From: Raja brachyura
Lineage: Eukaryota
Assembly (NCBI GenBank): GCA_963514005.1
Contig: OY740809.1
Span: forward strand, 28,830,001 to 28,894,000
Direction: 5' to 3'
DNA: 64,000 bases
Made by a program: the position numbers and the translations under genes. The notes beneath the pieces are model-generated. The model worked only from the letters and a program-made list of their open reading frames with translations. It had not been told where the DNA came from and searched no databases. This document shows, piece after piece, positions 9,470-48,332 of this stretch. Position 1 is the first letter of the stretch; each line of letters starts with the position of its first letter.

Positions 9470-10145
9470 AGAACAAAGGGATCTCATAGATACATAGGTA
9501 CATAGATCCCTGAAAGTGGCATCTCAGGCAGATAGGGTGGTAAAGAAGACATTCGGTACATAGGCCTTCGTCAGTCAAAGTAATAAGTACTGAAGTTGGG
9601 AGGTTATGTTACAGGTGTACAAGGCTTTGATACGGCTGCATTCGGAGTATTGCATTCAGCTTTGCTCACCCAGCTACAGAAAGGTATCATTAAGCTGGAG
9701 AGGGAAGATTTACGAGAATGTTAGCCAAGCTAAGACTTTATTTCCTGGAGCACAGGAGAGTAAAGGGTGATTTTATAGAGGCGTATAAAATCATGAGGGG
9801 AATTGATAGGGTGAATGCACAGTGTTTTACCAAGGAGAGGAGAATCAAGAACCAGAGGACATAGGTTTAAGGTAAGATGGGAAAAATTAAAGAAGAACCT
9901 GAGGGGCAACGTTTTCACTCAGAAGATGTTGGGGACATGAAACAAGCTGCCAGAGGAGGCAAGTTCTTCTTTCGTGTGGCGTGCACAGCCTAAAGTTGTT
10001 GGACAACTTGTTCTATTTGATCTTCCGTTTGTGTCGAGTTGATTGCATTAGTCGAAACAGGAAGGTTGCAATCTTCCACCCCGTTGAGGCAGATACAATA
10101 ACAACATTTAAATGACACTTGGACTGGTAAATGGGCAGGAAAGGT
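9470..10145 (+). mobile_element. CR1 LINE ORF2 3' fragment interrupted at 9962-10082
   Basis: Degenerate EYC.Q..SP.YRK and RTRGHRFKVR motifs. Confidence 0.8.
9962..10082 (-). mobile_element. Short (AAG)n-tailed retroposon with HDV-like 5' end, copy with internal deletion
   Basis: Reverse complement aligns end to end with 46895-47031; inserted in CR1 with GTT duplicated. Confidence 0.75.
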
Positions 10146-46520: not shown

Positions 46521-46894
46521 CTTCACTCCGCCTCTGAAATAATAAACGAATGGGACATGTCAAACCCTCATACTCCTCTCCAGAGAGCGCCTGCCCATTG
46601 CCTCCACAGATGCTGCCTGACCTGCCGAGTTCCTCGAGCACGTTGCGTATTGTTCAAAAGATTCCAGCATCTGCTATTTCATGTATCCGCCTCCCATAGT
46701 GAGTGCACTGGCAACTAGTCAGCGTCAGTTGAGCGTTTAGAGATTAACATCTCGTCTGAAAGATGTCACCTTCGCCAGAGCAGCCCCGGGCATTGAGAGT
46801 TGAATTGGGAAGCATCCACATAGAGGTTCAGATGGTGATCTCCTGACTCTCGGCCATTGGTCTATCCAGTTCAATTGAGTCAGTTTAGAGAATT

Positions 46895-47031
46895 GGGGTG
46901 GGAGATCGTAACCTTCAATTGTAACCCTGTTTCAACGAATGCAATCGACCTGGCGTGCACAATCAATTAAGATCAAATAGAACACGTTGTCCTACACCTT
47001 TAGGCTGTGCACGCCATACGCAAGAAGAAGA
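46895..47031 (+). mobile_element. Full-length 137-bp retroposon with HDV-like 5' end and (AAG)n tail
   Basis: 13-bp TSD AGTTT(A/G)GAGAATT at 46882-46894 and 47032-47044; second copy at 9962-10082. Confidence 0.85.
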
Positions 47032-48332
47032 AGTTTGGAGAATTGATGAACAGAACCCACACAGGAGGTGCTCGTTGTACCTGGCCATTACAACTAAACC
47101 CTCTGATGAAATGATAGGGAATGGTTTGTTGGCCCATCGAAGAGCAAGGGCGGTAACATCTATGAGCAGCGAAGGGGCTACAGAGGGTGCAACCACAAGT
47201 CCACTGTGGCAGAACCACTAGTTATGTACCGGGTTCCATGATATAACAAGTCCATCTCGTAGCTGGTTCTAAGATGTCGAACACCTATTGTACAGCAAGA
47301 ATAATCAACTCACAAATATTTTGTGTTATTAGTTTGACACAATTAGCCGTATGATGTGAGTTCATAAGTTCACAAGTTGTATGAGCAGAATTAGGCCATT
47401 TGGCCCATATTGTCTACTCCGCCAATCAATCCTGTATGATTTATCTTTCCCTCTCAATCCCATTCTCATGAGTTCAGCCAGAGTATGTCCATAGTCTTAT
47501 TGAATATTTGAAGGGGCAAATTGGTTTGGCACGAGAACCCAACTGAAACCAGAATCGAAGAATAGATGAAGTAGTACATTTCATAAAACGCGGCTATATC
47601 TTCAACGATGTAAAATATGTAGAATATTCCATTCTTTCCCAACTTTATATATATATATATACATTCTCTTTGTTTAATCTTTTTCTACTATTTTCTACCT
47701 TTATAAAAAATGGAAAAAAATATATAGAAGCACAATTATTAAGCACCACCACTGTCCACCTTCCATGTAAGACGTGAAATGAGATTATGCCTGTATCCGC
47801 ATCCCTGTATCCCTTCCTTATCACCTGTTCCACAGCTAACAATGGGTCATTATGGGCTTCACTCTTCCTTGGTCATCTGTTGCTGGTCCTGATTGACCCC
47901 CCCCCCTCCCCTGATTGCCTGAGGGGGCAACCTTTGCACTGAGTGGGTGGTGGGCATACGGAATGTACTTCCAGAGGAGGTAGTTGACAACCTTTAAAGG
48001 ACAGCACAACAACAATAACACATTTAAAGGACAGGTACATAGATAAGAAAGGTTTAGAGGGACATGTGCCAAATGCGGTCAAATGGGACTAGTTTAGATG
48101 GGGCCTCTTGGCCGGCATGGGCCGAAGGGCCTGTTTCTGTGCTACATGACTGTCTCTATAACTAATTGAAAAATGAGTTGACACGGGGTGCTGGGATCTC
48201 TCAATGATTGCAATGTGGTGCATACGCATAGATTATATAAACGTATAGTGCGTGCGTACAGTTATTGCTTGCTCGGTATTATTAATCAACAGTTGCATTA
48301 ATAATGTTTGTCACAGATCTGAAAGTTAGGCT

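What the first reader, a model, noticed from the sequence alone, without database searches (positions are those of the whole stretch)
46882..47044. 137-bp mini-retroposon that begins with an HDV-like ribozyme fold
Seen: a 13-bp TSD defines a complete element starting at GGGGTGG and ending CATACGC(AAG)n; a second copy (9962-10082, minus) starts at the same base. Together the copies read P1 GGGGTGG, then GA/AA, P2 GATTGCA, P3 ACC, loop TTC.., P1' ..ACCCT, G, short P4 TTTCRA, J4/2 C(G/T)AA, P2' TGCAATC. P2 is a perfect 7 bp in the 9962 copy and the presumed catalytic C is kept in both. Known: HDV-like ribozymes define the 5' end of R2, RTE and ingi/L1Tc retrotransposons and of their short internally deleted derivatives. 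Inference: a non-autonomous, non-tRNA 'ribozyme + LINE tail' family, possibly Vingi/ingi- or RTE-mobilised. Both copies are damaged in P3'/P1', so activity is predicted only for the consensus.
Basis: partly seen in the sequence, partly recalled or inferred. Interest (0 to 1): 0.85.

Follow-up and report, generated by a model that had tools for sequence, protein, structure and literature searches.

The report
Tiny ribozyme-headed offspring of a LINE
This is one of more than 11,000 copies of a 140-base jumping element made of the first ~80 and last ~35 bases of a 3.1-kb Vingi-like retrotransposon in the same vertebrate genome, and its head is a predicted self-cutting RNA of an unusually small kind, though both copies in this window are damaged in that head.

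Summary
Confirmed and extended. The element (46895-47031, 13-bp TSD) belongs to a family with at least 11,739 copies. Its parent was found: a ~3.1-kb single-ORF endonuclease/reverse-transcriptase LINE of Vingi build ('V5') that shares its first ~80 and last ~35 bases. Intact copies carry a 54-nt HDV-like fold with a CPEB3-type core and only 5 nt where P4 lies. Four Vingi-like families in the genome keep P1, P2, P3 and P1.1 through compensatory changes. Cleavage is untested; neither window copy passes my descriptor. New: of 57 V5 copies picked by their 3' part, 9 carry the head inverted at the 5' junction (0.7 expected); independent deletions join the same two places; and the bases just after the ribozyme pair, moderately, with each family's own 3' end. 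This suggests the RNA's two ends are held together, which would explain why this clade spawns two-part minis. Side finding from printed sequences: the mammalian CPEB3 ribozyme matches a gharial Vingi 5' end at 52 of 54 bases. New variant of a known kind (RIME/NARTc/SIDE-like).

The parts
46882..46894 (+). left target-site duplication (13 bp, 1 mismatch to the right copy)
   Evidence: family median TSD 11 bp, range 8-18, found in 74 of 86 full-length copies against 2 of 60 mismatched controls
46895..46946 (+). HDV-like ribozyme head, damaged in this copy (54 nt in intact copies): P1 5' strand 46895-46901, P2 5' strand 46904-46910, P3 46911-46913, P1' remnant 46925-46928, J1/4 46929-46930, 5-nt P4 stub 46931-46935, J4/2 46936-46939 with the presumed catalytic C at 46936, P2' 46940-46946
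   Evidence: catalytic role of the C is inferred from HDV/CPEB3
46918..46924 (+). lesion: 7 nt in place of the 9 nt that form the end of L3, P3' and the start of P1' in intact copies
   Evidence: alignment; copy fails descriptor
46947..46973 (+). rest of the parent LINE's 5' UTR start; holds the left arm (46951-46961) of an 11-bp inverted repeat
   Evidence: matches V5 5' ends up to about nt 80; inverted repeat; helix in MFE and centroid folds of 3 of the 4 full-length copies folded
46974..46986 (+). 13-nt junction filler, found in neither end of V5; resembles a repeat of the preceding bases
   Evidence: table 5c; origin inferred
46987..47021 (+). 3' end of the parent LINE: last codons, stop codon TAG at 47001-47003, 18-nt 3' UTR; holds the right arm (47006-47016) of the inverted repeat
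47022..47031 (+). (AAG)n tail
   Evidence: same tail on V5 copies
47032..47044 (+). right target-site duplication
9962..10082 (-). second copy, another subfamily, 12-nt deletion across L3/P3'/P1' and a 5-nt deletion further on

Best explanation
It is a dead copy of a non-coding, two-part derivative of a Vingi-like LINE (V5), made of that LINE's first ~80 and last ~35 bases, whose intact form likely cuts itself out of a host transcript with a minimal HDV-like ribozyme and is likely pasted back by V5's protein. Shown: family size, shared ends with V5, sharp 5' start, TSDs, AAG tail, covarying fold. Inferred: (1) read-through or self-started RNA is trimmed to G1 by the ribozyme; (2) V5 protein recognises the 3' end and primes reverse transcription at a nick, giving ~11-bp TSDs; (3) the 5' module is held next to the 3' end in the particle, probably helped by an 8-11-bp helix between the bases after the ribozyme and the 3' UTR, so the polymerase can jump from the tail to about nt 75-95 (giving a direct two-part mini) or the second nick can prime there (giving an inverted head). 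Step 3 is the least certain (about 0.5).
For: Parent predicted from the Vingi C-terminal pattern and found: 250 matches; V5 copies begin with the same GGGGTGG and match the mini to about nt 80 (L305, L311; L281); V5 is colinear with ~1000-aa single-ORF proteins from end to end that have endonuclease and RT domains and no RNase H. Fold: P1, P3, P1.1 97% paired over 9 heads from 4 families, 6 of 11 pairs changed on both sides, slid controls 44-55% paired; P2 7 of 7 in 6 of 6 heads with four different sequences. 5' start: 26 of 30; 489 and 480 contigs stop matching at G1 against 92 one base earlier in two other runs. End-holding: 12 of 57 V5 copies have an inversion at the 5' junction, 9 of the 12 lie within the first 111 nt (outer ends 42-111, seven at 73-81) whatever the length of the 3' part, 0.74 expected, maximum 6 in 200,000 draws; 11 of 30 loci picked by LINE-only 5' UTR show the same head-to-head joint, so the inverted piece is LINE RNA; TSDs enclose head plus body in 10 of 19, control 2 of 57; at least ten different direct joints from nt ~74-95 to the last 22-36 nt in four other runs and de novo deletions L134, L305. 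Own-family 5'/3' duplex is best in 4 of 4 rows at windows of 25 and 30 nt.
Against: No cleavage or RNA-end data; no RNA holder on record. Rfam gives only 16 bits against a gathering score of 44 (E 0.92) on an intact head and nothing on a V1 head. Only 9 of 30 copies pass the strict descriptor and the presumed catalytic C is kept in 20 of 30, lost mostly by C>T. Whole-element folding is no better than shuffles (z -0.83 to +0.83; pseudoknots are not modelled). The covariation rests on four families, V2 and V3 on one decayed copy each. The 5'/3' pairing was not significant in the first test on decayed copies (p 0.04-0.77), the post-ribozyme window was not the best partner along whole elements (beaten or equalled by 319 of 602, 16 of 611, 213 of 592, 187 of 570 windows), at 40 nt the V2/V3 cross pairs beat the own pairs, and window sizes were chosen afterwards (p 0.0075, 0.04, 0.034, 0.085 at 25 nt). 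In V5 the helix core is a palindrome, so it may be a repeated binding motif. Vingi membership was not tested on a tree with named references.
Confidence: 0.85

Rival explanations
1. Same origin, but the shrunken head no longer cleaves: the sharp 5' end comes from an internal Pol II promoter (as Pr77 does in L1Tc/NARTc) or from the polymerase stopping at a stable fold.
For: The L1Tc head is both promoter and ribozyme (PMC3383444, passages). P4 is reduced to 5 nt; P1.1 has one pair; Rfam score is low. Sequence cannot tell a start site from a cut site.
Against: All core positions (G1-U, U20, C22-G37, G25, J4/2 C) are kept in the parent and in sister families while helices covary; P4-less HDV-like ribozymes are active (PMC10879173, passages).
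Confidence: 0.1
2. The inverted heads and two-part forms arise because the RNA is broken internally and a stable 5' fragment (protected by the ribozyme fold) stays in the particle or comes from abundant mini RNA, with no end-to-end pairing.
For: Pairing statistics are mixed; most short inverted heads are identical in LINE and one mini subfamily, so their source cannot be told; an A-rich patch at nt 73-81 could attract priming by microhomology.
Against: Long inverted heads (to nt 245-490) and L255, L221, L263 hold LINE-only sequence; own-family pairing seen in four unrelated sequences.
Confidence: 0.4
3. It is an ordinary SINE with a small-RNA head and a borrowed LINE tail, and the ribozyme look is chance.
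For: Size, tail and copy number are SINE-like.
Against: No tRNA; head is the 5' end of the same LINE that gives the tail; covariation; 0 descriptor hits in 5.0 Mb of shuffles.
Confidence: 0.02

Closest known systems
RIME (from ingi) and NARTc (from L1Tc) of trypanosomes
   Same: Non-coding, 5' end plus 3' end of the parent LINE, HDV-like ribozyme in the first ~77 nt that cuts before nt +1 (PMC3383444, passages)
   Different: Vertebrate host, Vingi-like parent without RNase H, 140 nt, at least 11,739 copies, P4 reduced to 5 nt, AAG tail
Internally deleted derivatives of Vingi-1_EE (hedgehog); Vingi-derived parts of SINE2-1_ACar and SINE2-1_AMi
   Same: Two-part non-autonomous forms from Vingi are on record (PMC5786205, parts 1-4 of 5 read)
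   Different: [quoted passage not shown] The original Vingi paper was not held, and Repbase/Dfam could not be searched, so this family may already be deposited
R2 SIDEs of Drosophila
   Same: Ribozyme head joined to a LINE 3' end by internal deletion; template jump discussed as one route (PMC3414825, passages)
   Different: SIDEs are site-specific in rDNA and rare; this family is dispersed and abundant
Minimal HDV-like ribozymes (drz-Mtgn, theta ribozymes)
   Same: P4 absent, same nested double pseudoknot (PMC10879173, passages)
   Different: Those are nearly 99% in phages and often next to tRNAs; the paper's search of human, mouse and protist genomes reported none; here the fold heads a vertebrate retroelement
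Mammalian CPEB3 ribozyme
   Same: 7-bp P1 with G1-U, 3-bp P3, 7-nt L3 with U20 and G25, one G-C plus U-U in P1.1, C-G-A-A in J4/2 (PMC4836649, passages; sequence printed in bioRxiv 2022.09.22.508989)
   Different: CPEB3 has a full P4 and a longer J1/2-P2; single intronic copy
Twin-priming 5' inversions of L1
   Same: Inverted piece joined head-to-head to a truncated 3' part inside one TSD
   Different: In L1 (recalled; paper not held) the two pieces are usually near neighbours on the RNA; here the inverted piece is nearly always the extreme 5' end, 0.9-2.8 kb away from the 3' part

Membership tests
HDV-like ribozyme | 7-bp P1 beginning with G1-U (or G-C) | tested here: met
   20-25 of 20-28 copies per pair; 4 of 7 pairs change on both sides across families. 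Not met in the two window copies
HDV-like ribozyme | 3-bp P3 closing a 7-nt L3 with U20 and G25 | tested here: met
   U20 in 29 of 29, G25 in 25 of 29; P3 100% paired across 9 heads
HDV-like ribozyme | P2 and P1.1 forming the nested double pseudoknot | tested here: met
   P2 7 of 7 in 6 of 6 heads of four families; C22-G37 in 28 of 29 copies, U-A in V2
HDV-like ribozyme | catalytic C opening J4/2 (C-N-R-A) | tested here: met
   present in all four families; 20 of 30 mini copies keep it, 8 have T
HDV-like ribozyme | score above an Rfam HDV-family gathering threshold | tested here: not met
   16 bits against 44 for RF02682 on L200; nothing on L116 or the window
HDV-like ribozyme | self-cleavage 5' of G1 | not testable with these tools
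   needs a bench assay; only contigs were available
Minimal (P4-less) HDV-like ribozyme | P4 absent | tested here: met
   5 nt between J1/4 and J4/2 in V5 and minis, against 40, 36 and 19 nt in V1, V2, V3
Theta ribozyme | cleavage site next to a tRNA in a phage genome | tested here: not met
   vertebrate repeat
Two-part non-autonomous LINE (RIME/NARTc/SIDE type) | 5' end and 3' end both from one autonomous LINE, middle deleted | tested here: met
Two-part non-autonomous LINE (RIME/NARTc/SIDE type) | amplified as a unit with TSDs and the parent's tail | tested here: met
Vingi clade (for the parent V5) | compact single ORF, AP endonuclease + RT, no RNase H | tested here: met
   definition from PMC13708176 (passages). 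All V5 copies seen are broken, so 'single ORF' rests on colinearity with intact relatives at 30-48% identity
Vingi clade (for the parent V5) | placement with named Vingi elements on an RT tree | not tested
   no named Vingi protein among the 120 listed hits
Pol III SINE (tRNA, 5S, 7SL head) | small-RNA-derived head | tested here: not met
   head is the LINE's own 5' end

The most novel reading that the evidence does not exclude
Vingi LINEs as a clade start with an HDV-like ribozyme and fold their RNA end to end: the bases right after the ribozyme pair with the 3' UTR and the head is parked at the second nick. That one geometry would produce both the inverted-head insertions and the repeated birth of two-part minis, answering why only Ingi/Vingi/RTE/R2 make them; V5 would carry the first P4-less ribozyme amplified to five figures in a vertebrate; and the mammalian CPEB3 ribozyme would be a domesticated Vingi 5' end.
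Probability: 0.45. Interest if true: 0.82.

Novelty: new variant of a known kind. Interest (0 to 1): 0.62.

Why it matters
Two-part LINE derivatives with ribozyme heads are known, so the element class is not new. Three things add value. First, it extends HDV-like ribozymes to Vingi, with four families as a natural covariation set, and gives a 54-nt P4-less version in a vertebrate, a form so far reported almost only from phages. Second, the insertion scars of the parent (inverted heads, clustered joints) give a testable handle on a question Kojima 2018 left open: why only a few LINE clades spawn two-part elements. Vingi is already used as a gene-writing tool with both UTRs on the template (PMC13708176), so inverted-head products and a minimal template of ~120 nt matter there. 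Third, the same trail points to a Vingi origin for the CPEB3 ribozyme, which PMC8233481 says has not been found outside mammals. Searches for 'Vingi'+'ribozyme' (6 papers, none making these points in the three I opened or by title), 'Vingi'+'twin priming' (0) and 'CPEB3'+'Vingi' (0) cover open-access text only; patents, Repbase notes and subscription papers were not seen.

Tried and rejected
Top PF14529 hits were a young 5.1-kb two-ORF LINE with RNase H-like C-terminus (Nimb/I-like, label recalled): no shared ends, rejected as parent. Four other Vingi-like families V1-V4 share only the last few bases of the tail: rejected as parent. A pattern for a parent with a longer P4 found only indel variants of the mini (78 matches, 30 read). 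A pattern placing the junction 28 nt further upstream gave 0. Idea that the mini's middle is a piece of zinc-knuckle codons: rejected, V5's knuckle DNA differs. Idea that P3'/P1' is a deletion hotspot: the many 8-13-nt deletions were selected by the query; unselected rate is 2 of 100 and no control interval was counted, so it is open. Expression: no RNA holder listed; two runs guessed as RNA hold contigs of the element, which says nothing on ends or level. Rfam CPEB3 model did not appear for the two heads scanned. Earlier scan notes: nothing.

Full report
Observation. The window is G000:C31:28830001-28894000 of a 2.70-Gb vertebrate genome (mir-124 at 24953). The 137-bp element, its 13-bp TSD and the second copy are as described. 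Both are damaged in P3'/P1' and fail my HDV-like descriptor.

Family. A DNA search gave 1626 candidates, 40 scored. Two 9-mer anchors match exactly 11,739 times, reversed control 3, a lower bound; V5 5' ends are few (39 candidates), so nearly all are minis. Copies average 94-95% identity to one copy, so the burst is old. Of 30 copies picked only by their 3' 63 bases, 26 reach nt 1-3; TSDs of 8 bp or more were found in 27 of 30, 21 of 26 and 26 of 30 copies in three sets (median 11), mostly touching G1, against 2 of 60 mismatched controls. At least three subfamilies differ after the head. Contigs of four runs labelled as four organisms hold the parent and the joined form, two also show the sharp start; the labels are coded and one may be the source species.

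Parent. PF14529 led to a 3.1-kb single-ORF element with a similar head (V1); its protein found V2-V4; none shared the mini's ends. Intact relatives end in a Trp nine residues before the stop, which predicted a pattern that returned 250 matches of a fifth family, V5. V5 shares the last ~35 nt and the AAG tail and the first ~80 nt; L305 and L311 begin with the same GGGGTGG. V5 is colinear with ~1000-aa endonuclease-RT-zinc-knuckle proteins lacking RNase H, the Vingi build as defined in PMC13708176 (passages). All V5 copies seen are broken; the longest matching open frame is 426 aa. No tree with named Vingi was made.

Ribozyme. Intact heads are 54 nt. Nine heads from four families align without gaps: 97% of cells pair, 6 of 11 pairs change on both sides (P1 four, P3 one, P1.1 one), slid controls 44-55% (related rows inflate the shuffle control, and V2 and V3 are single decayed copies). 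P2 is 7 of 7 in four different sequences; the P4 region is 5 nt in V5 and minis, 40, 36 and 19 nt in V1-V3. The core matches CPEB3's features (PMC4836649, passages). Against: Rfam's best is 16 bits of 44, 9 of 30 copies pass the strict descriptor, 20 of 30 keep the C, and folding z-scores are null. Activity is inferred. Kojima 2018 (PMC5786205, parts 1-4 of 5 and supplement passages) does not list Vingi among ribozyme-bearing clades; PMC10879173 (passages) places nearly 99% of minimal forms in phages.

How minis are born. Of 57 V5 copies picked by their 3' part (the reference copy left out; my note's '58' was a miscount), 12 have an inversion at the 5' junction; 9 are the head (outer ends nt 42-111, seven at 73-81), one spans 65-368, two are ordinary neighbours. 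Uniform second priming predicts 0.74. Among the 30 picked by pattern alone, 6 show it; only 1.5 kb of flank was held for most, so some may be missed. Of 30 loci picked by LINE-only 5' UTR, 11 join the 5' end head-to-head to a distant 3' part (one shared with the first set), and 4 show direct internal deletions. TSDs enclose the whole in 10 of 19, control 2 of 57. In other runs at least ten distinct direct joints leave at nt ~74-95 and land 22-36 nt before the tail (15 of 101 joints shown). So the head is copied as a separate module at the same place in both outcomes. A helix between the post-ribozyme bases and the 3' UTR (8 bp in V5, 11 in the window's subfamily) could hold the ends together. 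Evidence is mixed: with the most typical natural copies own-family duplexes win 4 of 4 rows at 25 and 30 nt (p 0.0075-0.085 at 25 nt) but only 2 of 4 at 40 nt; with decayed copies and whole-element scans there was no clear signal. I put end-holding by protein and/or pairing at about 0.5, a retained broken 5' fragment at 0.4. L1 twin-priming geometry is recalled; that paper, the 2011 Vingi paper and Ruminski 2011 were not held.

Side finding. Kojima's supplement prints nt 2-74 of Vingi-2_Gav; a preprint prints the chimpanzee CPEB3 ribozyme template with P4's loop replaced. By eye they agree at 38 of 40 bases before that loop and 14 of 14 after it. PMC8233481 (passages) says the ribozyme is unknown outside mammals; 'CPEB3'+'Vingi' found 0 papers. 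A Vingi origin of CPEB3's ribozyme is inferred, not tested.

Verdict. A real, abundant, RIME/NARTc-like derivative of a Vingi-like LINE with a predicted minimal HDV-like ribozyme: new variant of a known kind. Other papers seen as passages: PMC5753468, PMC3414825, PMC3383444, PMC6007223. Repbase, Dfam, patents and bioRxiv supplements were not seen and may already hold the family or the Vingi ribozyme.

Noticed in passing
Kojima 2018 supplement and bioRxiv 2022.09.22.508989; not in the window: The printed 5' end of gharial Vingi-2_Gav matches the printed CPEB3 ribozyme at 52 of 54 bases outside the P4 loop (by eye), which suggests the mammalian CPEB3 ribozyme is a Vingi 5' end; the alligator SINE2-1_AMi carries a slightly changed version behind a tRNA head.
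   Followed up: partly
L216, L221, L227, L236, L241, L244, L255, L258, L270; L289-L311: V5 LINE copies with the ribozyme head inverted at the 5' junction inside one TSD; the inverted heads usually lack the first 4-13 nt.
   Followed up: yes
L101:3358-6494, L106-L135, L312-L318 (V1); L166-L185 (V2, V3, V4): Four more Vingi-like families; V1, V2 and V3 have HDV-like heads with long P4 regions; V4's head was not found.
   Followed up: partly
L186-L215; window 9962-10082; L317: Independent 8-13-nt deletions with varied ends across L3/P3'/P1' of the head, also in one V1 copy; could mark polymerase jumps across the folded core, but the unselected rate is 2 of 100 and no control was counted.
   Followed up: partly
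L091-L094, L097 (e.g. L091:2024-7140): A young 5.1-kb two-ORF LINE of I/Nimb type (label recalled) with copies 96-98% alike, long open frames and an AAG-rich end.
   Followed up: no
L134:3815-3944; L305; L290; L296; L286: Single de novo internal deletions of V5 with junctions other than the mini's, one (L305, ~500 bp) with a clear TSD.
   Followed up: partly
window 24953-25023: mir-124 precursor (Rfam RF00239, 81 bits).
   Followed up: no
base before 46895 and L031-L060: T is the commonest base before G1 (11 of 26 copies picked by 3' end); usually it is the last base of the TSD, so it may reflect a target preference.
   Followed up: no
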